Assembly (NCBI GenBank): GCA_009914755.4
Contig: CP068257.2
Span: forward strand, 11,104,001 to 11,168,000
Source of the DNA: the human T2T-CHM13v2.0 reference genome, Homo sapiens
DNA length: 64,000 nt
Direction of reading: 5' to 3'
Within the stretch, counting starts at the first letter, position 1. The number at the start of each line of letters is the position of its first letter. A program made the position numbers and the translations under genes. Of the stretch, positions 963 through 36,367 are shown in pieces. The notes under the pieces were generated by a model, which saw only the letters and a list, made by a program, of their open reading frames with translations, had not been told where the DNA came from and did no database searches.

Positions 963-979
963 TCCCGCTTCCAACGAAA
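963..979 (-). promoter_or_regulatory. CENP-B box, monomer 6 (intact)
   Basis: TCCCGCTTCCAACGAAA. Confidence 0.9.
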
Positions 980-1302: not shown

Positions 1303-1319
1303 TCCCGCTTCCAACGAAA
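1303..1319 (-). promoter_or_regulatory. CENP-B box, monomer 8 (intact)
   Basis: TCCCGCTTCCAACGAAA. Confidence 0.9.
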
Positions 1320-1643: not shown

Positions 1644-1660
1644 TCCCGTTTCCAACGAAA
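1644..1660 (-). promoter_or_regulatory. CENP-B box, monomer 10 (intact)
   Basis: TCCCGTTTCCAACGAAA. Confidence 0.9.
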
Positions 1661-1814
1661 TCGTTAGAGCTATCCAAATATCCAGTTACAGTTTCTACCA
1701 AAAGGGTGTTTCCAAATTGCTGCATCAAAAGAAAGGTTCAACTCTGTTAGTTGAGGACACACATCACAAAGAAGTTTGTGAGAATGCTTCTGTCTAGATT
1801 TTGTATGACGATAT

Positions 1815-1831
1815 TCCCTTTTCCAACGATA
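1815..1831 (-). promoter_or_regulatory. Degenerate CENP-B box, monomer 11 (predicted non-binding)
   Basis: TCCCTTTTCCAACGATA. Both essential blocks are hit (CCCG->CCCT and CGAA->CGAT). This form is conserved in all 36 units. Confidence 0.8.
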
Positions 1832-1869
1832 TCGTTAAAGCAATCTAAATATCAATTTGCAGAATCCAC

Positions 1870-14954: not shown

Positions 14955-16144
14955 AAAAATAGAGTTTCAAAGCTGCTCTGTAAAAAGAAAGGTTCCACTC
15001 TGTTAGCTGAGTACACACATCACAAACTTGTTTCTGAGAATCCTTCTGTCTCGTTTTTATGGGAAGATATTTACTTTTTCACCGTAGGCATCAAAGCGCT
15101 CCAAATGTCCACATCCAGATACTCCAGAACGAGTGTTTCAAACCTGCTCTATGAAAGGGAATCTTCAACTCTATGAGTTGAATGCAGACATCAGAAAGAA
15201 ATTTCTGAGAATGCTGCTGTCTACCTTTTATTTGAATTCCCGCTTCCAACGAAATCCTCCAAGCTATCCAAATATCCACTTGCAGATTCCACAAAAAGAG
15301 TGTTTCAAAACTGCTCTCTATCAATGGCAAAGTTCAACTCTGTTAGTTGAGGACACATATCACCAACAAGTTTCTGAGAATGCTTCTGTCTATTTTTTAT
15401 GGGAAGATATTTCCTTTTTCAGCGTAGGCGTCAAGGCGATCGAAATGTCCACTTCCACAAACTACAAAAAGAGTGTTTCAAACCTGCTCTATGAAAGGCC
15501 ATGTTCATCTCTATGAGTTGAATGGAAATATCCGAAAGAAATTTCTGGGAATGCTGCTGTCTAGTGTTTATACGAATTCCCGCTTCCAACGAAATCCTCA
15601 AAGCAATCCAAATATCCACTTGCAGAATCCACAAAAAGAGTGTTTCAAAACTGCTCTATCAATAGAAAGGTTCAACTCTTTTAGTTGAGTACACACATCA
15701 CGAACAAGTTTCTGAGAATGCTTCTGTCTGGCTTTTATTGGAAGACGTTTCCTTTTCACCAAAGGCATCAAAGCGCTCCAAATGTCCACTTCCAGATTCT
15801 TCCAAAAGAGTGTTTCAAACGTGCTCAAAGTAAGGGAATGTTCAACTCTGTGACTTGAATGCAGATATCACCAAGTAGTTTCTAATAGTGCTTCTGTCTA
15901 CATTTTAGATGATGATATTCCCGTTTCCAACGAAATCGTTAGAGCTATCCAAATATCCAGTTACAGTTTCTACCAAAAGGGTGTTTCCAAATTGCTGCAT
16001 CAAAAGAAAGGTTCAACTCTGTTAGTTGAGGACACACATCACAAAGAAGTTTGTGAGAATGCTTCTGTCTAGATTTTGTATGACGATATTCCCTTTTCCA
16101 ACGATATCGTTAAAGCAATCTAAATATCAATTTGCAGAATCCAC
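14955..16144 (-). repeat. HOR unit 9: 7-mer deletion variant (1190 bp; m1, m2/6 fusion, m7-m11)
   Basis: Anchor spacing is 1190 bp instead of 1870, i.e. 4 x 170 bp are missing. After m1 the next monomer ends with the m6-type 'ccacttgcagattccacaaaaagag' and runs straight into m7 ('ctctctatcaatggcaaag'). Confidence 0.88.
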
Positions 16145-18014
16145 AAAAATAGAGTTTCAAAGCTGCTCTGTAAAAAGAAAGGTTCCACTCTGTTAGCTGA
16201 GTACACACATCACAAACTTGTTTCTGAGAATCCTTCTGTCTCGTTTTTATGGGAAGATATTTACTTTTCCACCGTAGGCATCAAAGCGCTCCAAATGTCC
16301 ACATCCAGATACTCCAGAACGAGTGTTTCAAACCTGCTCTATGAAAGGGAATCTTCAACTCTATGAGTTGAATGCAGACATCAGAAAGAAATTTCTGAGA
16401 ATGCTGCTGTCTACCTTTTATTTGAATTCCCGCTTCCAACGAAATCCTCCAAGCTATCCAAATATCCACCTGCATTTTCCACAACAAGAGTGTTTCAAAA
16501 CTGCTCTATCAATAGAAATGTTCAACTCCTTTGGCTGGGTACACACATCACAAACAAGTTTCTGAGAATGCTTCTGTCTAGTTTTTATGGGAAGACGTTC
16601 CCTTTTTCACCAAAGGCATCAAAGCGCTCCAAATGTCCACTTCCAGACACTACAAAAAGAGTGTTTCAAACGTGCTCTAAGAAAGCGAATGTTCAACTCT
16701 GTGACTTGAATGCAGATATCACAAAGTAGTTTCTGAGAGGGCTTCTGTCTAGATTTTAGATGATGATATTCCCGTTTCCAACGAAATCATTAGAGCTATC
16801 CAAATATCCACTTACAGTTTCTACAAAAAGAGTGTTTCCAAACTGCTGCATCAAAAGAGAGGTTCCACTCTGTTAGCTGAGTACACACATCACAAACTTG
16901 TTTCTCAGAATCCTTCTGTCTCGTTTTTATGGGAAGATATTTACTTTTTCACCGTAGGCATCAAAGCGCTCCAAATGTCCACATCCAGATACTCCAGAAA
17001 GAGTGTTTCAAACCTGCTCTATGAAAGGGAATCTTCAACTCTATGAGTTGAATGCAGACATCAGAAAGAAATTTCTGAGAATGCTGCTGTCTACCTTTTA
17101 TTTGAATTCCCGCTTCCAACGAAATCCTCCAAGCTATCCAAATATCCACTTGCAGATTCCACAAAAAGAGTGTTTCAAAACTGCTCTCTATCAATGGCAA
17201 AGTTCAACTCTGTTAGTTGAGGACACATATCACCAACAAGTTTCTGAGAATGCTTCTGTCTATTTTTTATGGGAAGATATTTCCTTTTTCACCGTAGGCG
17301 TCAAGGCGATCGAAATGTCCACTTCCACAAACTACAAAAAGAGTGTTTCAAACCTGCTCTATGAAAGGCCATGTTCATCTCTATGAGTTGAATGGAAATA
17401 TCCGAAAGAAATTTCTGGGAATGCTGCTGTCTAGTGTTTATACGAATTCCCGCTTCCAACGTAATCCTCAAAGCAATCCAAATATCCACTTGCAGAATCC
17501 ACAAAAAGAGTGTTTCAAAACTGCTCTATCAATAGAAAGGTTCAACTCTTTTAGTTGAGTACACACATCACGAACAAGTTTCTGAGAATGCTTCTGTCTG
17601 GCTTTTATTGGAAGACGTTTCCTTTTCACCAAAGGCATCAAAGCGCTCCAAATGTCCACTTCCAGATTCTTCCAAAAGAGTGTTTCAAACGTGCTCAAAG
17701 TAAGGGAATGTTCAACTCTGTGACTTGAATGCAGATATCACCAAGTAGTTTCTAATAGTGCTTCTGTCTACATTTTAGATGATGATATTCCCGTTTCCAA
17801 CGAAATCGCTAGAGCTATCCAAATATCCAGTTACAGTTTCTACCAAAAGGGTGTTTCCAAATTGCTGCATCAAAAGAAAGGTTCAACTCTGTTAGTTGAG
17901 GACACACATCACAAAGAAGTTTGTGAGAATGCTTCTGTCTAGGTTTTGTATGACGATATTCCCTTTTCCAACGATATCGTTAAAGCAATCTAAATATCAA
18001 TTTGCAGAATCCAC
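16145..18014 (-). repeat. HOR unit 10 (11-mer, 1870 bp)
   Basis: Anchor at 16145. m8 'cgtaatcctcaaag', m10 'cgctagag', m11 'ctaggttttg'. m3 'ggcatcaaag' with 'gcagatatc'. Confidence 0.9.
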
Positions 18015-19883
18015 AAAAATAGAGTTTCAAAGCTGCTCTGTAAAAAGAAAGGTTCCACTCTGTTAGCTGAGTACACACATCACAAACTTGTTTCTCAGAA
18101 TCCTTCTGTCTCGTTTTTATGGGAAGATACTTACTTTTCCACCGTAGGCATCAAAGCGCTCCAAATGTCCACATCCAGATACTCCAGAACGAGTGTTTCA
18201 AACCTGCTCTATGAAAGGGAATCTTCAACTCTATGAGTTGAATGCAGACATCAGAAAGAAATTTCTGAGAATGCTGCTGTCTACCTTTTATTTGAATTCC
18301 CGCTTCCAACGAAATCCTCCAAGCTATCCAAATATCCACCTGCATTTTCCACAACAAGAGTGTTTCAAAACTGCTCTATCAATAGAAATGTTCAACTCCT
18401 TTGGCTGGGTACACACATCACAAACAAGTTTCTGAGAATGCTTCTGTCTAGTTTTTATGGGAAGACGTTCCCTTTTTCACCAAAGGCATCAAAGCGCTCC
18501 AAATGTCCACTTCCAGACACTACAAAAAGAGTGTTTCAAACGTGCTCTAAGAAAGCGAATGTTCAACTCTGTGACTTGAATGCACATATCACAAAGTAGT
18601 TTCTGAGAGGGCTTCTGTCTAGATTTTAGATGATGATATTCCCGTTTCCAACAAAATCATTAGAGCTTCCAAATATCCACTTACAGTTTCTACAAAAAGA
18701 GTGTTTCCAAACTGCTGCATCAAAAGAGAGGTTCCACTCTGTTAGCTGAGTACACACATCACAAACTTGTTTCTCAGAATCCTTCTGTCTCGTTTTTATG
18801 GGAAGATATTTACTTTTTCACCGTAGGCATCAAAGCGCTCCAAATGTCCACATCCAGATACTCCAGAAAGAGTGTTTCAAACCTGCCCTATGAAAGGGAA
18901 TCTTCAACTCTATGAGTTGAATGCAGACATCAGAAAGAAATTTCTGAGAATGCTGCTGTCTACCTTTTATTTGAATTCCCGCTTCCAACGAAATCCTCCA
19001 AGCTATCCAAATATCCACTTGCAGATTCCACAAAAAGAGTGTTTCAAAACTGCTCTCTATCAATGGCAAAGTTCAACTCTGTTAGTTGAGGACACATATC
19101 ACCAACAAGTTTCTGAGAATGCTTCTGTCTATTTTTTATGGGAAGATATTTCCTTTTTCACCGTAGGCGTCAAGGCGATCGAAATGTCCACTTCCACAAA
19201 CTACAAAAAGAGTGTTTCAAACCTGCTCTATGAAAGGCCATGTTCATCTCTATGAGTTGAATGGAAATATCCGAAAGAAATTTCTGGGAATGCTGCTGTC
19301 TAGTGTTTATACGAATTCCCGCTTCCAACGAAATCCTCAAAGCAATCCAAATATCCACTTGCAGAATCCACAAAAAGAGTGTTTCAAAACTGCTCTATCA
19401 ATAGAAAGGTTCAACTCTTTTAGTTGAGTACACACATCACGAACAAGTTTCTGAGAATGCTTCTGTCTGGCTTTTATTGGAAGACGTTTCCTTTTCAACA
19501 AAGGCATCAAAGCGCTCCAAATGTCCACTTCCAGATTCTTCCAAAAGAGTGTTTCAAACGTGCTCAAAGTAAAGGAATGTTCAACTCTGTGACTTGAATG
19601 CAGATATCACCAAGTAGTTTCTAATAGTGCTTCTGCCTACATTTTAGATGATGATATTCCCTTTTCCAACGAAATCGTTAGAGCTATCCAAATATCCAGT
19701 TACAGTTTCTACCAAAAGGGTGTTTCCAAATTGCTGCATCAAAAGAAAGGTTCAACTCTGTTAGTTGAGGACACACATCACAAAGAAGTTTGTGAGAATG
19801 CTTCTGTCTAGATTTTGTATGACGATATTCCCTTTTCCAACGATATCGTTAAAGCAATCTAAATATCAATTTGCAGAATCCAC
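18015..19883 (-). repeat. HOR unit 11 (11-mer, 1869 bp; B0 haplotype)
   Basis: m1 'tctcagaatcc' and 'gatacttac'. 'gcacatatc'. m4 box CAAA (18640-18656). m6 'cctgccctatg'. m9 'ttcaacaaagg'. m10 'ctgcctac' with box CCCT. Confidence 0.9.
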
Positions 19884-21753
19884 AAAAATAGAGTTTCAAA
19901 GCTGCTCTGTAAAAAGAAAGGTTCCACTCTGTTAGCTGAGTACACACATCACAAACTTGTTTCTGAGAATCCTTCTGTCTCGTTTTTATGGGAAGATATT
20001 TACTTTTCCACCGTAGGCATCAAAGCGCTCCAAATGTCCACATCCAGATACTCCAGAACGAGTGTTTCAAACCTGCTCTATGAAAGGGAATCTTCAACTC
20101 TATGAGTTGAATGCAGACATCAGAAAGAAATTTCTGAGAATGCTGCTGTCTACCTTTTATTTGAATTCCCGCTTCCAACGAAATCCTCCAAGCTATCCAA
20201 ATATCCACCTGCATTTTCCACAAAAAGAGTGTTTCAAAACTGCTCTATCAATAGAAATGTTCAACTCCTTTGGCTGGGTACACACATCACAAACAAGTTT
20301 CTGAGAATGCTTCTGTCTAGTTTTTATGGGAAGACATTCCCTTTTTCACCAAAGACATCAAAGCGCTCCAAATGTCCACTTCCAGACACTACAAAAAGAG
20401 TGTTTCAAACGTGCTCTAAGAAAGCGAATGTTCAACTTTGTGACTTGAATGCAGATATCACAAAGTAGTTTCTGAGAGGGCTTCTGTCTAGATTTTAGAT
20501 GATGATATTCCCGTTTCCAACGAAATCATTAGAGCTATCCAAATATCCACTTACAGTTTCTACAAAAAGAGTGTTTCCAAACTGCTGCATCAAAAGAGAG
20601 GTTCCACTCTGTTAGCTGAGTACACACATCACAAACTTGTTTCTCAGAATCCTTCTGTCTCGTTTTTATGGGAAGATATTTACTTTTTCACCGTAGGCAT
20701 CAAAGCGCTCCAAATGTCCACATCCAGATACTCCAGAAAGAGTGTTTCAAACCTGCTCTATGAAAGGGAATCTTCAACTCTATGAGTTGAATGCAGACAT
20801 CAGAAAGAAATTTCTGAGAATGCTGCTGTCTACCTTTTATTTGAATTCCCGCTTCCAACGAAATCCTCCAAGCTATCCAAATATCCACTTGCAGATTCCA
20901 CAAAAAGAGTGTTTCAAAACTGCTCTCTATCAATGGCAAAGTTCAACTCTGTTAGTTGAGGACACATATCACCAACAAGTTTCTGAGAATGCTTCTGTCT
21001 ATTTTTTATGGGAAGATATTTCCTTTTTCACCGTAGGCGTCAAGGCGATCGAAATGTCCACTTCCACAAACTACAAAAAGAGTGTTTCAAACCTGCTCTA
21101 TGAAAGGCCATGTTCATCTCTATGAGTTGAATGGAAATATCCGAAAGAAATTTCTGGGAATGCTGCTGTCTAGTGTTTATACGAATTCCCGCTTCCAACG
21201 TAATCCTCAAAGCAATCCAAATATCCACTTGCAGAATCCACAAAAAGAGTGTTTCAAAACTGCTCTATCAATAGAAAGGTTCAACTCTTTTAGTTGAGTA
21301 CACACATCACGAACAAGTTTCTGAGAATGCTTCTGTCTGGCTTTTATTGGAAGACGTTTCCTTTTCACCAAAGGCATCAAAGCGCTCCAAATGTCCACTT
21401 CCAGATTCTTCCAAAAGAGTGTTTCAAACGTGCTCAAAGTAAGGGAATGTTCAACTCTGTGACTTGAATGCAGATATCACCAAGTAGTTTCTAATAGTGC
21501 TTCTGTCTACATTTTAGATGATGATATTCCCGTTTCCAACGAAATCGCTAGAGCTATCCAAATATCCAGTTACAGTTTCTACCAAAAGGGTGTTTCCAAA
21601 TTGCTGCATCAAAAGAAAGGTTCAACTCTGTTAGTTGAGGACACACATCACAAAGAAGTTTGTGAGAATGCTTCTGTCTAGGTTTTGTATGACGATATTC
21701 CCTTTTCCAACGATATCGTTAAAGCAATCTAAATATCAATTTGCAGAATCCAC
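19884..21753 (-). repeat. HOR unit 12 (11-mer, 1870 bp; A* haplotype)
   Basis: m3 'gacattccc...gacatcaaag'. 'caactttgtgac'. m8 'cgtaat'. m10 'cgctagag' with intact box. m11 'ctaggttttg'. Confidence 0.9.
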
Positions 21754-23622
21754 AAAAATAGAGTTTCAAAGCTGCTCTGTAAAAAGAAAGGTTCCACTCT
21801 GTTAGCTGAGTACACACATCACAAACTTGTTTCTCAGAATCCTTCTGTCTCGTTTTTATGGGAAGATACTTACTTTTCCACCGTAGGCATCAAAGCGCTC
21901 CAAATGTCCACATCCAGATACTCCAGAACGAGTGTTTCAAACCTGCTCTATGAAAGGGAATCTTCAACTCTATGAGTTGAATGCAGACATCAGAAAGAAA
22001 TTTCTGAGAATGCTGCTGTCTACCTTTTATTTGAATTCCCGCTTCCAACGAAATCCTCCAAGCTATCCAAATATCCACCTGCATTTTCCACAACAAGAGT
22101 GTTTCAAAACTGCTCTATCAATAGAAATGTTCAACTCCTTTGGCTGGGTACACACATCACAAACAAGTTTCTGAGAATGCTTCTGTCTAGTTTTTATGGG
22201 AAGACGTTCCCTTTTTCACCAAAGGCATCAAAGCGCTCCAAATGTCCACTTCCAGACACTACAAAAAGAGTGTTTCAAACGTGCTCTAAGAAAGCGAATG
22301 TTCAACTCTGTGACTTGAATGCACATATCACAAAGTAGTTTCTGAGAGGGCTTCTGTCTAGATTTTAGATGATGATATTCCCGTTTCCAACAAAATCATT
22401 AGAGCTTCCAAATATCCACTTACAGTTTCTACAAAAAGAGTGTTTCCAAACTGCTGCATCAAAAGAGAGGTTCCACTCTGTTAGCTGAGTACACACATCA
22501 CAAACTTGTTTCTCAGAATCCTTCTGTCTCGTTTTTATGGGAAGATATTTACTTTTTCACCGTAGGCATCAAAGCGCTCCAAATGTCCACATCCAGATAC
22601 TCCAGAAAGAGTGTTTCAAACCTGCCCTATGAAAGGGAATCTTCAACTCTATGAGTTGAATGCAGACATCAGAAAGAAATTTCTGAGAATGCTGCTGTCT
22701 ACCTTTTATTTGAATTCCCGCTTCCAACGAAATCCTCCAAGCTATCCAAATATCCACTTGCAGATTCCACAAAAAGAGTGTTTCAAAACTGCTCTCTATC
22801 AATGGCAAAGTTCAACTCTGTTAGTTGAGGACACATATCACCAACAAGTTTCTGAGAATGCTTCTGTCTATTTTTTATGGGAAGATATTTCCTTTTTCAC
22901 CGTAGGCGTCAAGGCGATCGAAATGTCCACTTCCACAAACTACAAAAAGAGTGTTTCAAACCTGCTCTATGAAAGGCCATGTTCATCTCTATGAGTTGAA
23001 TGGAAATATCCGAAAGAAATTTCTGGGAATGCTGCTGTCTAGTGTTTATACGAATTCCCGCTTCCAACGAAATCCTCAAAGCAATCCAAATATCCACTTG
23101 CAGAATCCACAAAAAGAGTGTTTCAAAACTGCTCTATCAATAGAAAGGTTCAACTCTTTTAGTTGAGTACACACATCACGAACAAGTTTCTGAGAATGCT
23201 TCTGTCTGGCTTTTATTGGAAGACGTTTCCTTTTCAACAAAGGCATCAAAGCGCTCCAAATGTCCACTTCCAGATTCTTCCAAAAGAGTGTTTCAAACGT
23301 GCTCAAAGTAAAGGAATGTTCAACTCTGTGACTTGAATGCAGATATCACCAAGTAGTTTCTAATAGTGCTTCTGCCTACATTTTAGATGATGATATTCCC
23401 TTTTCCAACGAAATCGTTAGAGCTATCCAAATATCCAGTTACAGTTTCTACCAAAAGGGTGTTTCCAAATTGCTGCATCAAAAGAAAGGTTCAACTCTGT
23501 TAGTTGAGGACACACATCACAAAGAAGTTTGTGAGAATGCTTCTGTCTAGATTTTGTATGACGATATTCCCTTTTCCAACGATATCGTTAAAGCAATCTA
23601 AATATCAATTTGCAGAATCCAC
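21754..23622 (-). repeat. HOR unit 13 (11-mer, 1869 bp; B0 haplotype)
   Basis: Same marker set as unit 11, including 'gtaaaggaatg'. m4 box CAAA and m10 box CCCT. Confidence 0.9.
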
Positions 23623-25492
23623 AAAAATAGAGTTTCAAAGCTGCTCTGTAAAAAGAAAGGTTCCACTCTGTTAGCTGAGTACACACATCACAAACTTGTT
23701 TCTGAGAATCCTTCTGTCTCGTTTTTATGGGAAGATATTTACTTTTCCACCGTAGGCATCAAAGCGCTCCAAATGTCCACATCCAGATACTCCAGAACGA
23801 GTGTTTCAAACCTGCTCTATGAAAGGGAATCTTCAACTCTATGAGTTGAATGCAGACATCAGAAAGAAATTTCTGAGAATGCTGCTGTCTACCTTTTATT
23901 TGAATTCCCGCTTCCAACGAAATCCTCCAAGCTATCCAAATATCCACCTGCATTTTCCACAAAAAGAGTGTTTCAAAACTGCTCTATCAATAGAAATGTT
24001 CAACTCCTTTGGCTGGGTACACACATCACAAACAAGTTTCTGAGAATGCTTCTGTCTAGTTTTTATGGGAAGACATTCCCTTTTTCACCAAAGACATCAA
24101 AGCGCTCCAAATGTCCACTTCCAGACACTACAAAAAGAGTGTTTCAAACGTGCTCTAAGAAAGCGAATGTTCAACTTTGTGACTTGAATGCAGATATCAC
24201 AAAGTAGTTTCTGAGAGGGCTTCTGTCTAGATTTTAGATGATGATATTCCCGTTTCCAACGAAATCATTAGAGCTATCCAAATATCCACTTACAGTTTCT
24301 ACAAAAAGAGTGTTTCCAAACTGCTGCATCAAAAGAGAGGTTCCACTCTGTTAGCTGAGTACACACATCACAAACTTGTTTCTCAGAATCCTTCTGTCTC
24401 GTTTTTATGGGAAGATATTTACTTTTTCACCGTAGGCATCAAAGCGCTCCAAATGTCCACATCCAGATACTCCAGAAAGAGTGTTTCAAACCTGCTCTAT
24501 GAAAGGGAATCTTCAACTCTATGAGTTGAATGCAGACATCAGAAAGAAATTTCTGAGAATGCTGCTGTCTACCTTTTATTTGAATTCCCGCTTCCAACGA
24601 AATCCTCCAAGCTATCCAAATATCCACTTGCAGATTCCACAAAAAGAGTGTTTCAAAACTGCTCTCTATCAATGGCAAAGTTCAACTCTGTTAGTTGAGG
24701 ACACATATCACCAACAAGTTTCTGAGAATGCTTCTGTCTATTTTTTATGGGAAGATATTTCCTTTTTCACCGTAGGCGTCAAGGCGATCGAAATGTCCAC
24801 TTCCACAAACTACAAAAAGAGTGTTTCAAACCTGCTCTATGAAAGGCCATGTTCATCTCTATGAGTTGAATGGAAATATCCGAAAGAAATTTCTGGGAAT
24901 GCTGCTGTCTAGTGTTTATACGAATTCCCGCTTCCAACGTAATCCTCAAAGCAATCCAAATATCCACTTGCAGAATCCACAAAAAGAGTGTTTCAAAACT
25001 GCTCTATCAATAGAAAGGTTCAACTCTTTTAGTTGAGTACACACATCACGAACAAGTTTCTGAGAATGCTTCTGTCTGGCTTTTATTGGAAGACGTTTCC
25101 TTTTCACCAAAGGCATCAAAGCGCTCCAAATGTCCACTTCCAGATTCTTCCAAAAGAGTGTTTCAAACGTGCTCAAAGTAAGGGAATGTTCAACTCTGTG
25201 ACTTGAATGCAGATATCACCAAGTAGTTTCTAATAGTGCTTCTGTCTACATTTTAGATGATGATATTCCCGTTTCCAACGAAATCGCTAGAGCTATCCAA
25301 ATATCCAGTTACAGTTTCTACCAAAAGGGTGTTTCCAAATTGCTGCATCAAAAGAAAGGTTCAACTCTGTTAGTTGAGGACACACATCACAAAGAAGTTT
25401 GTGAGAATGCTTCTGTCTAGGTTTTGTATGACGATATTCCCTTTTCCAACGATATCGTTAAAGCAATCTAAATATCAATTTGCAGAATCCAC
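23623..25492 (-). repeat. HOR unit 14 (11-mer, 1870 bp; A* haplotype)
   Basis: Same marker set as unit 12 ('caactttgtgac', 'cgtaat', 'ctaggttttg'). Confidence 0.9.
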
Positions 25493-27361
25493 AAAAATAG
25501 AGTTTCAAAGCTGCTCTGTAAAAAGAAAGGTTCCACTCTGTTAGCTGAGTACACACATCACAAACTTGTTTCTCAGAATCCTTCTGTCTCGTTTTTATGG
25601 GAAGATACTTACTTTTCCACCGTAGGCATCAAAGCGCTCCAAATGTCCACATCCAGATACTCCAGAACGAGTGTTTCAAACCTGCTCTATGAAAGGGAAT
25701 CTTCAACTCTATGAGTTGAATGCAGACATCAGAAAGAAATTTCTGAGAATGCTGCTGTCTACCTTTTATTTGAATTCCCGCTTCCAACGAAATCCTCCAA
25801 GCTATCCAAATATCCACCTGCATTTTCCACAACAAGAGTGTTTCAAAACTGCTCTATCAATAGAAATGTTCAACTCCTTTGGCTGGGTACACACATCACA
25901 AACAAGTTTCTGAGAATGCTTCTGTCTAGTTTTTATGGGAAGACGTTCCCTTTTTCACCAAAGGCATCAAAGCGCTCCAAATGTCCACTTCCAGACACTA
26001 CAAAAAGAGTGTTTCAAACGTGCTCTAAGAAAGCGAATGTTCAACTCTGTGACTTGAATGCACATATCACAAAGTAGTTTCTGAGAGGGCTTCTGTCTAG
26101 ATTTTAGATGATGATATTCCCGTTTCCAACAAAATCATTAGAGCTTCCAAATATCCACTTACAGTTTCTACAAAAAGAGTGTTTCCAAACTGCTGCATCA
26201 AAAGAGAGGTTCCACTCTGTTAGCTGAGTACACACATCACAAACTTGTTTCTCAGAATCCTTCTGTCTCGTTTTTATGGGAAGATATTTACTTTTTCACC
26301 GTAGGCATCAAAGCGCTCCAAATGTCCACATCCAGATACTCCAGAAAGAGTGTTTCAAACCTGCCCTATGAAAGGGAATCTTCAACTCTATGAGTTGAAT
26401 GCAGACATCAGAAAGAAATTTCTGAGAATGCTGCTGTCTACCTTTTATTTGAATTCCCGCTTCCAACGAAATCCTCCAAGCTATCCAAATATCCACTTGC
26501 AGATTCCACAAAAAGAGTGTTTCAAAACTGCTCTCTATCAATGGCAAAGTTCAACTCTGTTAGTTGAGGACACATATCACCAACAAGTTTCTGAGAATGC
26601 TTCTGTCTATTTTTTATGGGAAGATATTTCCTTTTTCACCGTAGGCGTCAAGGCGATCGAAATGTCCACTTCCACAAACTACAAAAAGAGTGTTTCAAAC
26701 CTGCTCTATGAAAGGCCATGTTCATCTCTATGAGTTGAATGGAAATATCCGAAAGAAATTTCTGGGAATGCTGCTGTCTAGTGTTTATACGAATTCCCGC
26801 TTCCAACGAAATCCTCAAAGCAATCCAAATATCCACTTGCAGAATCCACAAAAAGAGTGTTTCAAAACTGCTCTATCAATAGAAAGGTTCAACTCTTTTA
26901 GTTGAGTACACACATCACGAACAAGTTTCTGAGAATGCTTCTGTCTGGCTTTTATTGGAAGACGTTTCCTTTTCAACAAAGGCATCAAAGCGCTCCAAAT
27001 GTCCACTTCCAGATTCTTCCAAAAGAGTGTTTCAAACGTGCTCAAAGTAAGGGAATGTTCAACTCTGTGACTTGAATGCAGATATCACCAAGTAGTTTCT
27101 AATAGTGCTTCTGCCTACATTTTAGATGATGATATTCCCTTTTCCAACGAAATCGTTAGAGCTATCCAAATATCCAGTTACAGTTTCTACCAAAAGGGTG
27201 TTTCCAAATTGCTGCATCAAAAGAAAGGTTCAACTCTGTTAGTTGAGGACACACATCACAAAGAAGTTTGTGAGAATGCTTCTGTCTAGATTTTGTATGA
27301 CGATATTCCCTTTTCCAACGATATCGTTAAAGCAATCTAAATATCAATTTGCAGAATCCAC
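25493..27361 (-). repeat. HOR unit 15 (11-mer, 1869 bp; B0 haplotype)
   Basis: Same markers as units 11 and 13 except 'gtaagggaatg'. m4 box CAAA (26118-26134). m10 box CCCT. Confidence 0.9.
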
Positions 27362-29231
27362 AAAAATAGAGTTTCAAAGCTGCTCTGTAAAAAGAAAGGT
27401 TCCACTCTGTTAGCTGAGTACACACATCACAAACTTGTTTCTGAGAATCCTTCTGTCTCGTTTTTATGGGAAGATATTTACTTTTCCACCGTAGGCATCA
27501 AAGCGCTCCAAATGTCCACATCCAGATACTCCAGAACGAGTGTTTCAAACCTGCTCTATGAAAGGGAATCTTCAACTCTATGAGTTGAATGCAGACATCA
27601 GAAAGAAATTTCTGAGAATGCTGCTGTCTACCTTTTATTTGAATTCCCGCTTCCAACGAAATCCTCCAAGCTATCCAAATATCCACCTGCATTTTCCACA
27701 AAAAGAGTGTTTCAAAACTGCTCTATCAATAGAAATGTTCAACTCCTTTGGCTGGGTACACACATCACAAACAAGTTTCTGAGAATGCTTCTGTCTAGTT
27801 TTTATGGGAAGACATTCCCTTTTTCACCAAAGACATCAAAGCGCTCCAAATGTCCACTTCCAGACACTACAAAAAGAGTGTTTCAAACGTGCTCTAAGAA
27901 AGCGAATGTTCAACTCTGTGACTTGAATGCAGATATCACAAAGTAGTTTCTGAGAGGGCTTCTGTCTAGATTTTAGATGATGATATTCCCGTTTCCAACG
28001 AAATCATTAGAGCTATCCAAATATCCACTTACAGTTTCTACAAAAAGAGTGTTTCCAAACTGCTGCATCAAAAGAGAGGTTCCACTCTGTTAGCTGAGTA
28101 CACACATCACAAACTTGTTTCTCAGAATCCTTCTGTCTCGTTTTTATGGGAAGATATTTACTTTTTCACCGTAGGCATCAAAGCGCTCCAAATGTCCACA
28201 TCCAGATACTCCAGAAAGAGTGTTTCAAACCTGCTCTATGAAAGGGAATCTTCAACTCTATGAGTTGAATGCAGACATCAGAAAGAAATTTCTGAGAATG
28301 CTGCTGTCTACCTTTTATTTGAATTCCCGCTTCCAACGAAATCCTCCAAGCTATCCAAATATCCACTTGCAGATTCCACAAAAAGAGTGTTTCAAAACTG
28401 CTCTCTATCAATGGCAAAGTTCAACTCTGTTAGTTGAGGACACATATCACCAACAAGTTTCTGAGAATGCTTCTGTCTATTTTTTATGGGAAGATATTTC
28501 CTTTTTCACCGTAGGCGTCAAGGCGATCGAAATGTCCACTTCCACAAACTACAAAAAGAGTGTTTCAAACCTGCTCTATGAAAGGCCATGTTCATCTCTA
28601 TGAGTTGAATGGAAATATCCGAAAGAAATTTCTGGGAATGCTGCTGTCTAGTGTTTATACGAATTCCCGCTTCCAACGTAATCCTCAAAGCAATCCAAAT
28701 ATCCACTTGCAGAATCCACAAAAAGAGTGTTTCAAAACTGCTCTATCAATAGAAAGGTTCAACTCTTTTAGTTGAGTACACACATCACGAACAAGTTTCT
28801 GAGAATGCTTCTGTCTGGCTTTTATTGGAAGACGTTTCCTTTTCACCAAAGGCATCAAAGCGCTCCAAATGTCCACTTCCAGATTCTTCCAAAAGAGTGT
28901 TTCAAACGTGCTCAAAGTAAGGGAATGTTCAACTCTGTGACTTGAATGCAGATATCACCAAGTAGTTTCTAATAGTGCTTCTGTCTACATTTTAGATGAT
29001 GATATTCCCGTTTCCAACGAAATCGCTAGAGCTATCCAAATATCCAGTTACAGTTTCTACCAAAAGGGTGTTTCCAAATTGCTGCATCAAAAGAAAGGTT
29101 CAACTCTGTTAGTTGAGGACACACATCACAAAGAAGTTTGTGAGAATGCTTCTGTCTAGATTTTGTATGACGATATTCCCTTTTCCAACGATATCGTTAA
29201 AGCAATCTAAATATCAATTTGCAGAATCCAC
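27362..29231 (-). repeat. HOR unit 16 (11-mer, 1870 bp; A*-like haplotype)
   Basis: KTSKRSK-type m3, 'cgtaat', 'cgctagag', but 'caactctgtgac' and 'ctagattttg', i.e. slightly diverged from units 12 and 14. Confidence 0.9.
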
Positions 29232-30759
29232 AAAAATAGAGTTTCAAAGCTGCTCTGTAAAAAGAAAGGTTCCACTCTGTTAGCTGAGTACACACATCAC
29301 AAACTTGTTTCTCAGAATCCTTCTGTCTCGTTTTTATGGGAAGATACTTACTTTTCCACCGTAGGCATCAAAGCGCTCCAAATGTCCACATCCAGATACT
29401 CCAGAACGAGTGTTTCAAACCTGCTCTATGAAAGGGAATCTTCAACTCTATGAGTTGAATGCAGACATCAGAAAGAAATTTCTGAGAATGCTGCTGTCTA
29501 CCTTTTATTTGAATTCCCGCTTCCAACGAAATCCTCCAAGCTATCCAAATATCCACCTGCATTTTCCACAACAAGAGTGTTTCAAAACTGCTCTATCAAT
29601 AGAAATGTTCAACTCCTTTGGCTGGGTACACACATCACAAACAAGTTTCTGAGAATGCTTCTGTCTAGTTTTTATGGGAAGACGTTCCCTTTTTCACCAA
29701 AGGCATCCAAGCGCTCCAAATGTCCACATCCAGATACTCCAGAAAGAGTGTTTCAAACCTGCTCTATGAAAGGGAATCTTCAACTCTATGAGTTGAATGC
29801 AGACATCAGAAAGAAATTTCTGAGAATGCTGCTGTCTACCTTTTATTTGAATTCCCGCTTCCAACGAAATCCTCCAAGCTATCCAAATATCCACTTGCAG
29901 ATTCCACAAAAAGAGTGTTTCAAAACTGCTCTCTATCAATGGCAAAGTTCAACTCTGTTAGTTGAGGACACATATCACCAACAAGTTTCTGAGAATGCTT
30001 CTGTCTATTTTTTATGGGAAGATATTTCCTTTTTCACCATAGGCGTCAAGGCGATCGAAATGTCCACTTCCACAAACTACAAAAAGAGTGTTTCAAACCT
30101 GCTCTATGAAAGGCCATGTTCATCTCTATGAGTTGAATGGAAATATCCGAAAGAAATTTCTGGGAATGCTGCTGTCTAGTGTTTATACGAATTCCCGCTT
30201 CCAACGAAATCCTCAAAGCAATCCAAATATCCACTTGCAGAATCCACAAAAAGAGTGTTTCAAAACTGCTCTATCAATAGAAAGGTTCAACTCTTTTAGT
30301 TGAGTACACACATCACGAACAAGTTTCTGAGAATGCTTCTGTCTGGCTTTTATTGGAAGACGTTTCCTTTTCAACAAAGGCATCAAAGCGCTCCAAATGT
30401 CCACTTCCAGATTCTTCCAAAAGAGTGTTTCAAACGTGCTCAAAGTAAGGGAATGTTCAACTCTGTGACTTGAATGCAGATATCACCAAGTAGTTTCTAA
30501 TAGTGCTTCTGCCTACATTTTAGATGATGATATTCCCTTTTCCAACGAAATCGTTAGAGCTATCCAAATATCCAGTTACAGTTTCTACCAAAAGGGTGTT
30601 TCCAAATTGCTGCATCAAAAGAAAGGTTCAACTCTGTTAGTTGAGGACACACATCACAAAGAAGTTTGTGAGAATGCTTCTGTCTAGATTTTGTATGACG
30701 ATATTCCCTTTTCCAACGATATCGTTAAAGCAATCTAAATATCAATTTGCAGAATCCAC
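29232..30759 (-). repeat. HOR unit 17: 9-mer deletion variant (1528 bp; m1, m2, m3/5 fusion, m6-m11)
   Basis: Anchor spacing 1528 bp, i.e. 2 x 171 bp missing. The m3 end joins the m5 end inside the shared 'aaagcgctccaaatgtccac' tract. The junction is marked by the unique 'ggcatccaagcgc' at ~29705-29730. m7 'caccataggcg', m9 'ttcaacaaagg', m10 'ctgcctac' with box CCCT. Confidence 0.9.
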
Positions 30760-32629
30760 AAAAATAGAGTTTCAAAGCTGCTCTGTAAAAAGAAAGGTTC
30801 CACTCTGTTAGCTGAGTACACACATCACAAACTTGTTTCTGAGAATCCTTCTGTCTCGTTTTTATGGGAAGATATTTACTTTTCCACCGTAGGCATCAAA
30901 GCGCTCCAAATGTCCACATCCAGATACTCCAGAACGAGTGTTTCAAACCTGCTCTATGAAAGGGAATCTTCAACTCTATGAGTTGAATGCAGACATCAGA
31001 AAGAAATTTCTGAGAATGCTGCTGTCTACCTTTTATTTGAATTCCCGCTTCCAACGAAATCCTCCAAGCTATCCAAATATCCACCTGCATTTTCCACAAA
31101 AAGAGTGTTTCAAAACTGCTCTATCAATAGAAATGTTCAACTCCTTTGGCTGGGTACACACATCACAAACAAGTTTCTGAGAATGCTTCTGTCTAGTTTT
31201 TATGGGAAGACATTCCCTTTTTCACCAAAGACATCAAAGCGCTCCAAATGTCCACTTCCAGACACTACAAAAAGAGTGTTTCAAACGTGCTCTAAGAAAG
31301 CGAATGTTCAACTCTGTGACTTGAATGCAGATATCACAAAGTAGTTTCTGAGAGGGCTTCTGTCTAGATTTTAGATGATGATATTCCCGTTTCCAACGAA
31401 ATCATTAGAGCTATCCAAATATCCACTTACAGTTTCTACAAAAAGAGTGTTTCCAAACTGCTGCATCAAAAGAGAGGTTCCACTCTGTTAGCTGAGTACA
31501 CACATCACAAACTTGTTTCTCAGAATCCTTCTGTCTCGTTTTTATGGGAAGATATTTACTTTTTCACCGTAGGCATCAAAGCGCTCCAAATGTCCACATC
31601 CAGATACTCCAGAAAGAGTGTTTCAAACCTGCTCTATGAAAGGGAATCTTCAACTCTATGAGTTGAATGCAGACATCAGAAAGAAATTTCTGAGAATGCT
31701 GCTGTCTACCTTTTATTTGAATTCCCGCTTCCAACGAAATCCTCCAAGCTATCCAAATATCCACTTGCAGATTCCACAAAAAGAGTGTTTCAAAACTGCT
31801 CTCTATCAATGGCAAAGTTCAACTCTGTTAGTTGAGGACACATATCACCAACAAGTTTCTGAGAATGCTTCTGTCTATTTTTTATGGGAAGATATTTCCT
31901 TTTTCACCGTAGGCGTCAAGGCGATCGAAATGTCCACTTCCACAAACTACAAAAAGAGTGTTTCAAACCTGCTCTATGAAAGGCCATGTTCATCTCTATG
32001 AGTTGAATGGAAATATCCGAAAGAAATTTCTGGGAATGCTGCTGTCTAGTGTTTATACGAATTCCCGCTTCCAACGTAATCCTCAAAGCAATCCAAATAT
32101 CCACTTGCAGAATCCACAAAAAGAGTGTTTCAAAACTGCTCTATCAATAGAAAGGTTCAACTCTTTTAGTTGAGTACACACATCACGAACAAGTTTCTGA
32201 GAATGCTTCTGTCTGGCTTTTATTGGAAGACGTTTCCTTTTCACCAAAGGCATCAAAGCGCTCCAAATGTCCACTTCCAGATTCTTCCAAAAGAGTGTTT
32301 CAAACGTGCTCAAAGTAAGGGAATGTTCAACTCTGTGACTTGAATGCAGATATCACCAAGTAGTTTCTAATAGTGCTTCTGTCTACATTTTAGATGATGA
32401 TATTCCCGTTTCCAACGAAATCGCTAGAGCTATCCAAATATCCAGTTACAGTTTCTACCAAAAGGGTGTTTCCAAATTGCTGCATCAAAAGAAAGGTTCA
32501 ACTCTGTTAGTTGAGGACACACATCACAAAGAAGTTTGTGAGAATGCTTCTGTCTAGGTTTTGTATGACGATATTCCCTTTTCCAACGATATCGTTAAAG
32601 CAATCTAAATATCAATTTGCAGAATCCAC
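30760..32629 (-). repeat. HOR unit 18 (11-mer, 1870 bp; haplotype A)
   Basis: m1 'tctgagaatcc...gatatttacttttcc'. m3 'gacattccc/gacatcaaag'. 'gcagatatc'. m8 'cgtaat'. m10 intact box with 'cgctagag'. m11 'ctaggttttg'. Confidence 0.9.
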
Positions 32630-34497
32630 AAAAATAGAGTTTCAAAGCTGCTCTGTAAAAAGAAAGGTTCCACTCTGTTAGCTGAGTACACACATCACAA
32701 ACTTGTTTCTCAGAATCCTTCTGTCTCGTTTTTATGGGAAGATACTTACTTTTCCACCGTAGGCATCAAAGCGCTCCAAATGTCCACATCCAGATACTCC
32801 AGAACGAGTGTTTCAAACCTGCTCTATGAAAGGGAATCTTCAACTCTATGAGTTGAATGCAGACATCAGAAAGAAATTTCTGAGAATGCTGCTGTCTACC
32901 TTTTATTTGAATTCCCGCTTCCAACGAAATCCTCCAAGCTATCCAAATATCCACCTGCATTTTCCACAACAAGAGTGTTTCAAAACTGCTCTATCAATAG
33001 AAATGTTCAACTCCTTTGGCTGGGTACACACATCACAAACAAGTTTCTGAGAATGCTTCTGTCTAGTTTTTATGGGAAGACGTTCCCTTTTTCACCAAAG
33101 GCATCAAAGCGCTCCAAATGTCCACTTCCAGACACTACAAAAAGAGTGTTTCAAACGTGCTCTAAGAAAGCGAATGTTCAACTCTGTGACTTGAATGCAC
33201 ATATCACAAAGTAGTTTCTGAGAGGGCTTCTGTCTAGATTTTAGATGATGATATTCCCGTTTCCAACAAAATCATTAGAGCTTCCAAATATCCACTTACA
33301 GTTTCTACAAAAAGAGTGTTTCCAAACTGCTGCATCAAAAGAGAGGTTCCACTCTGTTAGCTGAGTACACACATCACAAACTTGTTTCTCAGAATCCTTC
33401 TGTCTCGTTTTTATGGGAAGATTATACTTTTTCACCGTAGGCATCAAAGCGCTCCAAATGTCCACATCCAGATACTCCAGAAAGAGTGTTTCAAACCTGC
33501 CCTATGAAAGGGAATCTTCAACTCTATGAGTTGAATGCAGACATCAGAAAGAAATTTCTGAGAATGCTGCTGTCTACCTTTTATTTGAATTCCCGCTTCC
33601 AACGAAATCCTCCAAGCTATCCAAATATCCACTTGCAGATTCCACAAAAAGAGTGTTTCAAAACTGCTCTCTATCAATGGCAAAGTTCAACTCTGTTAGT
33701 TGAGGACACATATCACCAACAAGTTTCTGAGAATGCTTCTGTCTATTTTTTATGGGAAGATATTTCCTTTTTCACCGTAGGCGTCAAGGCGATCGAAATG
33801 TCCACTTCCACAAACTACAAAAAGAGTGTTTCAAACCTGCTCTATGAAAGGCCATGTTCATCTCTATGAGTTGAATGGAAATATCCGAAAGAAATTTCTG
33901 GGAATGCTGCTGTCTAGTGTTTATACGAATTCCCGCTTCCAACGAAATCCTCAAAGCAATCCAAATATCCACTTGCAGAATCCACAAAAAGAGTGTTTCA
34001 AAACTGCTCTATCAATAGAAAGGTTCAACTCTTTTAGTTGAGTACACACATCACGAACAAGTTTCTGAGAATGCTTCTGTCTGGCTTTTATTGGAAGACG
34101 TTTCCTTTTCAACAAAGGCATCAAAGCGCTCCAAATGTCCACTTCCAGATTCTTCCAAAAGAGTGTTTCAAACGTGCTCAAAGTAAGGGAATGTTCAACT
34201 CTGTGACTTGAATGCAGATATCACCAAGTAGTTTCTAATAGTGCTTCTGCCTACATTTTAGATGATGATATTCCCTTTTCCAACGAAATCGTTAGAGCTA
34301 TCCAAATATCCAGTTACAGTTTCTACCAAAAGGGTGTTTCCAAATTGCTGCATCAAAAGAAAGGTTCAACTCTGTTAGTTGAGGACACACATCACAAAGA
34401 AGTTTGTGAGAATGCTTCTGTCTAGATTTTGTATGACGATATTCCCTTTTCCAACGATATCGTTAAAGCAATCTAAATATCAATTTGCAGAATCCAC
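32630..34497 (-). repeat. HOR unit 19 (11-mer, 1868 bp; haplotype B1)
   Basis: 'gcacatatc'. m4 box CAAA (33255-33271). Indel 'gggaagattatac' (~33415). m6 'cctgccctatg'. m9 'ttcaacaaagg'. m10 'ctgcctac' with box CCCT. Confidence 0.9.
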
Positions 34498-36367
34498 AAA
34501 AATAGAGTTTCAAAGCTGCTCTGTAAAAAGAAAGGTTCCACTCTGTTAGCTGAGTACACACATCACAAACTTGTTTCTGAGAATCCTTCTGTCTCGTTTT
34601 TATGGGAAGATATTTACTTTTCCACCGTAGGCATCAAAGCGCTCCAAATGTCCACATCCAGATACTCCAGAACGAGTGTTTCAAACCTGCTCTATGAAAG
34701 GGAATCTTCAACTCTATGAGTTGAATGCAGACATCAGAAAGAAATTTCTGAGAATGCTGCTGTCTACCTTTTATTTGAATTCCCGCTTCCAACGAAATCC
34801 TCCAAGCTATCCAAATATCCACCTGCATTTTCCACAAAAAGAGTGTTTCAAAACTGCTCTATCAATAGAAATGTTCAACTCCTTTGGCTGGGTACACACA
34901 TCACAAACAAGTTTCTGAGAATGCTTCTGTCTAGTTTTTATGGGAAGACATTCCCTTTTTCACCAAAGACATCAAAGCGCTCCAAATGTCCACTTCCAGA
35001 CACTACAAAAAGAGTGTTTCAAACGTGCTCTAAGAAAGCGAATGTTCAACTCTGTGACTTGAATGCAGATATCACAAAGTAGTTTCTGAGAGGGCTTCTG
35101 TCTAGATTTTAGATGATGATATTCCCGTTTCCAACGAAATCATTAGAGCTATCCAAATATCCACTTACAGTTTCTACAAAAAGAGTGTTTCCAAACTGCT
35201 GCATCAAAAGAGAGGTTCCACTCTGTTAGCCGAGTACACACATCACAAACTTGTTTCTCAGAATCCTTCTGTCTCGTTTTTATGGGAAGATATTTACTTT
35301 TTCACCGTAGGCATCAAAGCGCTCCAAATGTCCACATCCAGATACTCCAGAAAGAGTGTTTCAAACCTGCTCTATGAAAGGGAATCTTCAACTCTATGAG
35401 TTGAATGCAGACATCAGAAAGAAATTTCTGAGAATGCTGCTGTCTACCTTTTATTTGAATTCCCGCTTCCAACGAAATCCTCCAAGCTATCCAAATATCC
35501 ACTTGCAGATTCCACAAAAAGAGTGTTTCAAAACTGCTCTCTATCAATGGCAAAGTTCAACTCTGTTAGTTGAGGACACATATCACCAACAAGTTTCTGA
35601 GAATGCTTCTGTCTATTTTTTATGGGAAGATATTTCCTTTTTCACCGTAGGCGTCAAGGCGATCGAAATGTCCACTTCCACAAACTACAAAAAGAGTGTT
35701 TCAAACCTGCTCTATGAAAGGCCATGTTCATCTCTATGAGTTGAATGGAAATATCCGAAAGAAATTTCTGGGAATGCTGCTGTCTAGTGTTTATACGAAT
35801 TCCCGCTTCCAACGAAATCCTCAAAGCAATCCAAATATCCACTTGCAGAATCCACAAAAAGAGTGTTTCAAAACTGCTCTATCAATAGAAAGGTTCAACT
35901 CTTTTAGTTGAGTACACACATCACGAACAAGTTTCTGAGAATGCTTCTGTCTGGCTTTTATTGGAAGACGTTTCCTTTTCACCAAAGGCATCAAAGCGCT
36001 CCAAATGTCCACTTCCAGATTCTTCCAAAAGAGTGTTTCAAACGTGCTCAAAGTAAGGGAATGTTCAACTCTGTGACTTGAATGCAGATATCACCAAGTA
36101 GTTTCTAATAGTGCTTCTGTCTACATTTTAGATGATGATATTCCCGTTTCCAACGAAATCGCTAGAGCTATCCAAATATCCAGTTACAGTTTCTACCAAA
36201 AGGGTGTTTCCAAATTGCTGCATCAAAAGAAAGGTTCAACTCTGTTAGTTGAGGACACACATCACAAAGAAGTTTGTGAGAATGCTTCTGTCTAGATTTT
36301 GTATGACGATATTCCCTTTTCCAACGATATCGTTAAAGCAATCTAAATATCAATTTGCAGAATCCAC
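34498..36367 (-). repeat. HOR unit 20 (11-mer, 1870 bp; haplotype C)
   Basis: A-like first half. m5 'gccgag' (35221). m8 'cgaaat'. m10 intact box. m11 'ctagattttg'. Confidence 0.9.

What the first reader, a model, noticed from the sequence alone, without database searches (positions are those of the whole stretch)
18015..29231. Intermediate domain with a 3.74-kb two-haplotype alternation that appears ancestral to the super-repeat
Units 11-16 alternate B0 (AHITK 'gcacatatc', 'cctgccctatg', broken m4 and m10 boxes) with A* ('gacatcaaag', 'cgtaat', intact boxes) at an exact 3739-bp period. The 9-mers and B1 units further right share the derived states of B0 ('ttcaacaaagg', 'ctgcctac', CCCT box). 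B1 is B0 plus the 'gattatac' indel. The A/C units share the A* states. The order of events implied is: two-unit alternation, then the 9-mer deletion in a B0-like unit, then amplification of the four-unit block.
Basis: inference. Interest (0 to 1): 0.5.

Follow-up and report, generated by a model that had tools for sequence, protein, structure and literature searches.

The report
Alternating repeat variants, chromosome 21 centromere

Summary
The whole window is alpha satellite: 36 copies of the 11-monomer (1870 bp) higher-order repeat (HOR) of human chromosomes 13 and 21. The spacing of its 7-mer and 9-mer variants matches published T2T-CHM13 chr21 coordinates exactly, placing the window at about 11.104-11.168 Mb.

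Units 11-16 alternate B0 and A* with starts exactly 3739 bp apart. The two types differ at 14-17 sites, and all quoted marker strings check out.

- **Clades:** measured against the published array-wide consensus, the 9-mers share derived B states and A/C share derived A* states. NJ bootstrap for B0+B1+9-mers is 80%.
- **9-mers:** they are sister to B0+B1, not nested in it. They lack 874C.
- **u11-u14:** these are a very recent, 100% identical duplication with private mutations. Only u15-u16 looks ancestral.
- **B1 indel:** it also occurs in unit 5, so its direction of change is open.
- **Exchange:** four hybrid units (u10, u26, u33, u34) plus the patchy B1b units u23/u30 show exchange or conversion.
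- **CENP-B boxes:** A* is not fully intact. 'cgtaat' breaks the m8 box.

The pattern fits in-register unequal exchange producing nested superHORs of 2, then 4, then 8 units. The CCCV pattern is already published. Interest is low.

The parts
18015..19883 (.). u11, an 11-mer HOR of haplotype B0 (1869 bp). Carries 82C, 116C, 571C, 639A, 654del, 874C, 1485A, 1560A, 1623C and 1649T.
19884..21753 (.). u12, an 11-mer HOR of haplotype A* (1870 bp). Carries 453A, 472A, 555T, 1318T, 1665C and 1799G.
21754..25492 (.). u13 (B0) plus u14 (A*). This pair is 100% identical to u11+u12 over 3739 bp.
25493..29231 (.). u15 (B0 without 1560A) plus u16 (A* without 555T and 1799G). This is the ancestor-like pair for the B1+C half of the super-repeat.
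18641..18655 (-). Broken CENP-B box of monomer 4 in B0 (CCCGTTTCCAACAAA; 639 G>A).
19659..19673 (-). Broken CENP-B box of monomer 10 in B0 (CCCTTTTCCAACGAA; 1649 G>T).
21188..21202 (-). Broken CENP-B box of monomer 8 in A* (CCCGCTTCCAACGTA; 1318 A>T, the 'cgtaat' marker).
16145..18014 (.). u10. Consensus-like on the left and A-type on the right (1318T, 1665C, 1799G). It marks the left edge of the alternation.
14955..16144 (.). u09, a 7-mer variant (1190 bp). It comes from an m1/m5 exchange inside a 42-bp identical tract.
29232..43503 (.). Super-repeat copies 1 and 2, each 7136 bp, with the order 9-mer, A, B1, C (u17-u24).
29700..29727 (.). Junction of the 9-mer. The m3/m5 exchange lies within a roughly 26-bp shared tract and carries the private change 819C.
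43504..48769 (.). Super-repeat copy 3 (5266 bp). One unit was lost. u26 is a hybrid, A on the left and B1 on the right, with the switch at 45504-45601.
48770..64000 (.). Super-repeat copy 4 (7136 bp), copy 5 (7138 bp, with hybrids u33 and u34), and the start of copy 6 (9-mer u36, truncated by the window end).

Best explanation
**What it is.** The region is part of the active alpha-satellite array of human chromosome 21 (D21Z1, the alpha21-I 11-monomer higher-order repeat). It lies at about chr21:11.122-11.133 Mb of T2T-CHM13.

**The alternation.** Two HOR haplotypes differ at about 0.9% of positions and in which CENP-B boxes are mutated. They alternate as a 22-monomer 'superHOR' present three times.

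**How it arose (inferred).** In-register unequal exchange, either between sister chromatids or coupled to replication, duplicated two-HOR blocks.
- The neighbouring 7136-bp repeat (9-mer, A, B1, C) descends from a four-HOR block made of two such pairs.
- In one B unit an out-of-register exchange between monomers 3 and 5 removed 342 bp.
- That block was then amplified, including a later eight-HOR duplication, and was edited by further exchanges that left hybrid units.
- The present alternation is a sister lineage of the super-repeat's ancestor, not the ancestor itself. u15-u16 are ancestor-like, while u11-u14 are a very recent duplicate.

**Shown versus inferred.** The identity of the array, the haplotypes, the clades, the hybrid units and the junctions are shown. 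The exchange mechanism and the order of events are inferred.
For: **Identity.**
- The window is 171-bp satellite throughout.
- The 1870-bp unit is 99.6% identical to the published chr21 consensus.
- The 'Cen21' primers match exactly.
- 9-mer spacings of 7136, 7136, 5266, 7136 and 7138 bp, and the 7-mer offset, equal the published CHM13 chr21 positions.

**Haplotypes and clades.**

**Block duplication.** The 3739-bp copies are identical and the 7136-bp copies differ at 2-4 sites.

**Hierarchy.** A and C differ at 2-3 sites, whereas A and B differ at 14-17. The B-like/A-like alternation persists through the super-repeat.

**Exchange.**
- Hybrids u10, u26, u33 and u34 each have a single switch point.
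- Copy 3 equals copy 1 minus one unit, with no substitutions.
- The deletion junctions lie in identical tracts between paralogous monomers.
Against: - The history is not a clean tree. 47 of 231 site pairs fail the four-gamete test.
- 874C versus 1799G requires an extra exchange.
- B1b (u23, u30) lacks 82C and 1485A.
- The B1 indel is shared with the distant unit u05.
- The outgroup is a majority consensus taken from a PDF, not a true ancestor.
- Only 36 of the 182 HOR copies in the array are visible, so the donor units may lie outside the window.
- The [9-mer + 11-mer] repeats reported to the right of the window were not examined.
Confidence: 0.75

Rival explanations
1. Reverse polarity. The two-haplotype alternation is derived from the super-repeat, for example from its B1+C half, rather than the other way round.
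For: - u11-u14 are 100% identical copies with private derived states, so part of the domain is very young.
- The B1 indel haplotype exists elsewhere, in u05, so B1 could be the older form.
Against: - u15 and u16 carry the consensus state at every site where they differ from B1a and C (795/797 and 734) and have no private derived state.
- None of the super-repeat-specific changes (the 342-bp deletion, 819C, 1150A, 734C) occurs in u11-u16.
- A deletion of two monomers cannot revert without a donor.
Confidence: 0.12
2. Similarity through conversion rather than descent. The B-like and A-like marker sets were spread among units by short-tract gene conversion, so the clades do not record duplication history.
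For: - Four-gamete failures.
- B1b lacks two B markers at separate places.
- u05 and u03 carry partial B marker sets.
- The left domain is a mosaic, with 61 of 105 site pairs incompatible.
Against: - Marker sets are linked over the full 1.87 kb and repeat in strict multi-kb register.
- Multi-kb copies are identical or differ at 2-4 sites, including private variants in adjacent units.
- Removing three single-switch hybrids removes most of the incompatibilities: 47 falls to 11.
Confidence: 0.1
3. Assembly artefact. The near-identical periodic structure reflects collapse or mis-joining in a satellite assembly.
For: None comes from the sequence itself. Copies this similar are in general hard to assemble.
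Against: - The structure has internally consistent nested variants and hybrids with clean switch points.
- The same coordinates and pattern were reported from the T2T-CHM13 assembly by others, although that is the same assembly.
- Central high-identity blocks are reported for many independently assembled chr21 centromeres.
Confidence: 0.03

Closest known systems
T2T-CHM13 chr21 'cascading 11mer HOR' array with the CCCV variant pattern (Gluncic et al. 2025, PMC12385485)
   Same: - It is the same locus. The published variant positions give spacings identical to the window's 9-mers and 7-mer.
- The consensus is the same (99.6%).
- The 9-mer is the same, with two monomers lost and a hybrid monomer type.
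- The authors already propose that a variant arose and that groups of 4, 3 or 2 HOR copies were then duplicated.
   Different: That paper treats all 11-mers as 'canonical'. It does not resolve the A*/B0/B1/C haplotypes, the 3739-bp alternation to the left of the first 9-mer, or the hybrids.
SuperHORs and HORhaps (HG002 annotation, PMC13477032; HOR-haps and layered or nested recent duplications, Altemose et al., bioRxiv 10.1101/2021.07.12.452052)
   Same: - An n-mer of HORs with at least one differing HOR haplotype, repeated at least three times. u11-u16 meet this with n=2.
- Nested recent duplications within a young, highly identical central zone.
   Different: This is a small, local case of 11 kb. 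I found no published superHOR annotation for this chr21 stretch in the papers I could read.
Smith-type unequal crossing-over in tandem arrays
   Same: - In-register block duplication and deletion.
- Hybrid units with single switch points.
- Deletions between paralogous monomers inside identical tracts.
   Different: The mechanism is inferred from its products. Sister-chromatid exchange, break-induced replication and conversion cannot be told apart here.

Membership tests
Human alpha satellite HOR array D21Z1 (alpha21-I 11-mer, shared with D13Z1) | Head-to-tail monomers of about 171 bp | tested here: met
   TRF finds period 171 over positions 1-63998. The monomers are 167-173 bp long.
Human alpha satellite HOR array D21Z1 (alpha21-I 11-mer, shared with D13Z1) | Higher-order unit: monomers within a unit are divergent, while units are nearly identical to each other | tested here: met
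   Monomers are 67-98% identical. Units differ at 0-24 of 1870 sites.
Human alpha satellite HOR array D21Z1 (alpha21-I 11-mer, shared with D13Z1) | Sequence match to the published chr21 11-mer consensus and to Cen21 primers | tested here: met
   1843 of 1850 aligned bases are identical to the consensus in the supplement of PMC12385485. The primers from PMC4694756 match exactly, 71 and 15 times.
Human alpha satellite HOR array D21Z1 (alpha21-I 11-mer, shared with D13Z1) | CENP-B boxes in alternate monomers | tested here: met
   The core motif is present in m2, m4, m6, m8 and m10 of the consensus.
Human alpha satellite HOR array D21Z1 (alpha21-I 11-mer, shared with D13Z1) | Chromosome 21 rather than chromosome 13 | tested here: met
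   Five successive 9-mer spacings and the 7-mer offset equal the CHM13 chr21 positions in the Figure 3 legend of PMC12385485. No chr13 sequence was available for a direct comparison.
Human alpha satellite HOR array D21Z1 (alpha21-I 11-mer, shared with D13Z1) | CENP-A or kinetochore occupancy | not testable with these tools
   No chromatin or methylation data were available.
SuperHOR (definition in PMC13477032) | Unit is an n-mer of HORs with n = 2-9 | tested here: met
   n=2 for u11-u16 and n=4 for u17-u24.
SuperHOR (definition in PMC13477032) | [quoted passage not shown] | tested here: met
   For n=2 there are three consecutive copies at a period of 3739 bp. For n=4 only two intact copies are consecutive within the window. 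Copy 3 lost a unit and copy 5 has hybrids.
SuperHOR (definition in PMC13477032) | At least one HOR of the n-mer has a different HOR haplotype | tested here: met
   A* and B0 differ at 14-17 sites. The formal HORhap tool was not run.
Products of unequal crossing-over | Hybrid units with a single switch point, accompanied by a unit gain or loss | tested here: met
   u26 is A on the left and B1 on the right, and its super-repeat copy is one unit short (5266 bp). u10, u33 and u34 are also hybrids.
Products of unequal crossing-over | Reciprocal products, or direct observation of the exchange | not testable with these tools
   This needs population or pedigree assemblies.

The most novel reading that the evidence does not exclude
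The alternation is not neutral. On this reading, two HOR haplotypes with complementary CENP-B-box losses form a functional 22-monomer unit. B has lost the m4 and m10 boxes and A has lost the m8 box. The box spacing of that unit would favour the unit's own amplification or affect CENP-A/CENP-B positioning in the chr21 centromere core. Nothing here tests this. A published report that the most identical central segments of chr21 arrays usually do not coincide with the CDR argues against a kinetochore link.
Probability: 0.04. Interest if true: 0.5.

Novelty: already known. Interest (0 to 1): 0.12.

Why it matters
The value is mainly as a worked example. It shows at base resolution how a centromeric array builds nested periodicities of 1, 2, 4 and 8 HOR units, and how it edits them by unequal exchange. 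This happens in the smallest human active centromere array, which is of interest for chromosome 21 nondisjunction.

There are two practical by-products:
- The standard Cen21 reverse qPCR primer perfectly matches only one haplotype clade, 15 of the 36 units in this window.
- The haplotypes differ in the number of intact CENP-B boxes per unit (3, 4 or 5).

None of this changes current understanding of satellite evolution.

Tried and rejected
- **MAFFT alignment of all 36 units.** It misplaced the large deletions and gave 1291 'variable' columns. I replaced it with pairwise global alignment to u12 using cheap gap extension, which gave 55 variable sites.
- **Chromosome identity.** Before identification I considered the 11-mer arrays of chromosomes 8, 13 and 15 from memory. 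The primer matches and the coordinate spacing settled on chr21.
- **Literature look-ups.** A search for 'S2C13 21H1L' found nothing. PMC9233505 is not held, so I used the bioRxiv version instead.
- **Protein, RNA, phage and plasmid tools.** I did not use them, because the whole window is satellite.
- **Exact genomic offset.** I could fix it only to within a few hundred bases. The window start is chr21:11,104,001 if the published starts refer to the other end of their monomer t1, and about 11,104,167 otherwise.
Full report
**What the window is**

Tandem Repeats Finder reports one array of 171-bp units, with a 338-bp dimeric sub-period, over positions 1-63998. Base composition is flat. Autocorrelation peaks at 1870 bp and 7136 bp. 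A local lag scan shows near-perfect 3739-bp periodicity from about 15 to 26 kb and 7136/7137-bp periodicity from about 23 kb onward.

A 40-bp anchor finds 36 unit starts.
- Most units are 1867-1870 bp, which is 11 monomers.
- u09 is 1190 bp, a 7-mer.
- u17, u21, u25, u28 and u32 are 1528 bp, and u36 (cut by the window end) carries the same deletion. These are the 9-mers.

Monomers within a unit are 67-98% identical, and m2 and m6 are 98% identical. Units differ from one another at only 0-24 sites. [quoted passage not shown]

**Which array it is**

I recalled two alpha21-I primer sequences from memory and then checked them.
- Both are listed as 'Cen21 fw/rv' in PMC4694756.
- The forward primer matches the window exactly 71 times, in m2 and m6 of every unit that retains them.
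- The reverse primer matches 15 times, only in m3 of units carrying 453A.

Gluncic et al. 2025 (PMC12385485) describe the T2T-CHM13 chr21 11-mer array at 10,963,339-11,302,559, with 182 copies.
- Their consensus monomers, from the supplement, are 99.6% identical to the window consensus when concatenated.
- Their Figure 3 legend lists one variant type at 11,132,802; 11,139,938; 11,147,074; 11,152,340; 11,159,476; 11,166,614 and further positions.
- The spacings are 7136, 7136, 5266, 7136 and 7138 bp. These equal the spacings of my 9-mers at 29232, 36368, 43504, 48770, 55906 and 63044.
- Another listed variant at 11,118,525 has the same offset as my 7-mer.

The window is therefore CHM13 chr21 at about 11.104-11.168 Mb on the plus strand. 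The finding lies at about 11.122-11.133 Mb. The same paper already reports a 'CCCV' pattern and proposes that a variant arose and was then co-duplicated with 4, 3 or 2 HOR copies.

**Checking the observation**

Pairwise alignment of every unit to u12 gives 55 variable sites.
- u11, u13 and u15 (B0) and u12, u14 and u16 (A*) alternate. Same-type starts are exactly 3739 bp apart.
- u11+u12 equals u13+u14 at all 3739 bases. u15+u16 differs from them at three sites: 1560, 555 and 1799.
- B0 and A* differ at 14-17 sites.
- B0 has broken CENP-B boxes in m4 (639 G>A) and m10 (1649 G>T).

Three corrections apply.
- The A* marker 'cgtaat' (1318 A>T) breaks the m8 box. A* therefore has four intact boxes out of five, not five.
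- u23 and u30 lack 'ttcaacaaagg'.
- 'gattatac' also occurs in u05.

**Testing the interpretation: polarity and clades**

The published array-wide consensus serves as a proxy ancestor. It carries the non-B, non-A state at nearly all marker sites. Both haplotypes are therefore derived.
- **B states:** 82C, 116C, 1485A, 1623C and 1649T, plus 571C, 639A and 654del where that segment is not deleted.
- **A states:** 453A, 472A, 1665C and mostly 1318T.
- The 9-mers carry the five B states that lie outside their deletion.
- All A and C units carry the A states.

NJ trees place the 9-mers with B0 and B1, and place A and C with A*. With hybrids removed and the proxy ancestor as root, bootstrap values are as follows.

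| Grouping | Bootstrap |
|---|---|
| B0+B1+9-mers | 80% |
| 9-mers alone | 88% |
| A*+A+C | 58% |
| A*+A+C with u10 | 71% |
| B0+B1 | 44% |
| B0+9-mers | 1% |
| B1+9-mers | 5% |

The refuting outcome, 9-mers clustering with A-type units, does not occur.

**Testing the interpretation: where it falls short**

1. **The 9-mers are sister to B0+B1.** All B0 and B1 units share 874C, while the 9-mers have the ancestral T. The 9-mers also have private 1150A and 819C, and 819C lies inside the crossover window. The unit that suffered the deletion was therefore a B unit unlike any 11-mer in the window.
2. **The intermediate domain is not a frozen ancestor.**
   - u11-u14 are two identical copies that share private 1560A and 555T. 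This duplication is at least as recent as the super-repeat copies, which differ at 2-4 sites per 7136 bp.
   - Only u15+u16 is ancestor-like. It has no private derived state and differs from B1a (u19) plus C (u24) only by lacking 795del/797A and 734C.
3. **The direction of the B1 change is open.** u19 equals u15 plus the compound change 795del/797A. However, the same change, together with 571C, 639A and 654del, is present in u05, 24 kb to the left. Either B1 acquired it by exchange, or B0 lost it.
4. **The markers are not fully congruent.**
   - In u10-u35, 47 of 231 informative site pairs fail the four-gamete test.
   - This falls to 11 after removing u26, u33 and u34, and to 7 after also removing u23 and u30.
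   - 874C occurs in B0 and B1. 1799G occurs in u10, u12, u14 and A. With the ancestral T/A combination included, all four combinations exist, so at least one extra exchange or recurrent change is needed.

**Mechanism (inferred)**

The products look like unequal exchange.
- The 9-mer junction is identical to m3 up to CACCAAAGGCATC and identical to m5 from AAGCGCTCCAAATGTCCACA. The exchange therefore lies within a shared tract of about 26 bp.
- The 7-mer junction lies in a 42-bp tract shared by m1 and m5.
- u26 is A-type up to site 472 and B1-type from site 571. Its super-repeat copy is exactly one unit short (5266 bp) and otherwise has no substitution relative to copy 1.
- u33 and u34 are A-left/B-right hybrids with different switch points. 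This explains the 7138-bp copy.
- Copies 1 and 2 differ at four sites, copy 3 equals copy 1, and copy 4 equals copy 2 plus two changes. A 14.27-kb, eight-HOR duplication therefore followed the four-HOR stage.
- The alternation of B-like and A-like units runs through u25 and, apart from the hybrids u26, u33 and u34, to u36. A and C differ at 2-3 sites, against 14-17 for A versus B.

This hierarchy supports the order two-unit, then four-unit, then eight-unit periodicity.

**Comparison with what is known**

- HOR haplotypes, central zones of recent nested duplication and layered expansion are described genome-wide for CHM13.
- 'SuperHORs' are formally defined as n-mers of HORs (n = 2-9) with differing HORhaps, repeated at least three times. 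u11-u16 meet that definition with n=2.
- 7-mer and 9-mer variants of the chr21 11-mer, and highly identical central segments, are reported across many chr21 centromeres.
- The CCCV pattern of this exact locus is published.
- What appears not to be spelled out there is the haplotype-level alternation to the left of the first 9-mer and the hybrid units. These are details of a known process.

**Verdict**

The clades and the general order of events hold. 'Ancestral', 'nested within B0/B1' and 'B1 = B0 + indel' are overstated, and exchange or conversion has blurred the record.
- In novelty terms this is already known, and interest is low.

**Limits**

- Only 36 of the 182 HOR copies were visible.
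- The outgroup is a majority consensus read from a PDF.
- No chr13 sequence, other human haplotypes or chromatin data could be examined.

Noticed in passing
window 14955-16144: u09 is a 7-monomer variant (1190 bp) made by an exchange between monomers 1 and 5 within a 42-bp identical tract. It corresponds to the published variant at chr21:11,118,525.
   Followed up: yes
window 29232-55905: There is an eight-HOR (14.27 kb) level of repetition. Super-repeat copy 3 equals copy 1 with no substitutions but one unit lost. Copy 4 equals copy 2 plus two changes. Copies 1 and 2 differ at four sites.
   Followed up: yes
window 45504-45601 (u26); 58308-58750 (u33); 60622-60925 (u34): These are the switch intervals of three hybrid units, each A-type on the left and B-type on the right. 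u26 explains the 5266-bp spacing, and u33 and u34 explain the 7138-bp spacing.
   Followed up: yes
window 7478-9344 (u05): u05 carries the B1 segment haplotype (571C, 639A, 654del, 795del/797A, i.e. 'gattatac') on an otherwise u01-like or consensus background. It lies 24 kb from the first B1 unit.
   Followed up: partly
window 1-18014: The left domain is much more heterogeneous. Units differ at 13.6 sites per pair on average, against 0-1 within classes on the right. It is also mosaic: 61 of 105 informative site pairs fail the four-gamete test.
   Followed up: partly
whole window; e.g. 20319-20342: The widely used 'Cen21' reverse qPCR primer matches perfectly only in units with 453A, which are the A-clade units plus u04 (15 of 36 units). 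The other units have one mismatch, so the assay may weight HOR haplotypes unequally.
   Followed up: partly
whole window: The number of intact CENP-B boxes per unit varies by haplotype: 5 in the consensus and in u20/u27, 4 in A*/A, 3 in B0/B1, and 3 in the 9-mers. A four-unit super-repeat copy therefore has 14-15 boxes in 42 monomers, against 20 in 44 for four consensus units.
   Followed up: partly
PMC12385485 text versus its Figure 3 legend: The CCCV string printed in the paper's text puts the two-unit gap one variant earlier than its own listed coordinates do. The coordinates agree with the window.
   Followed up: yes
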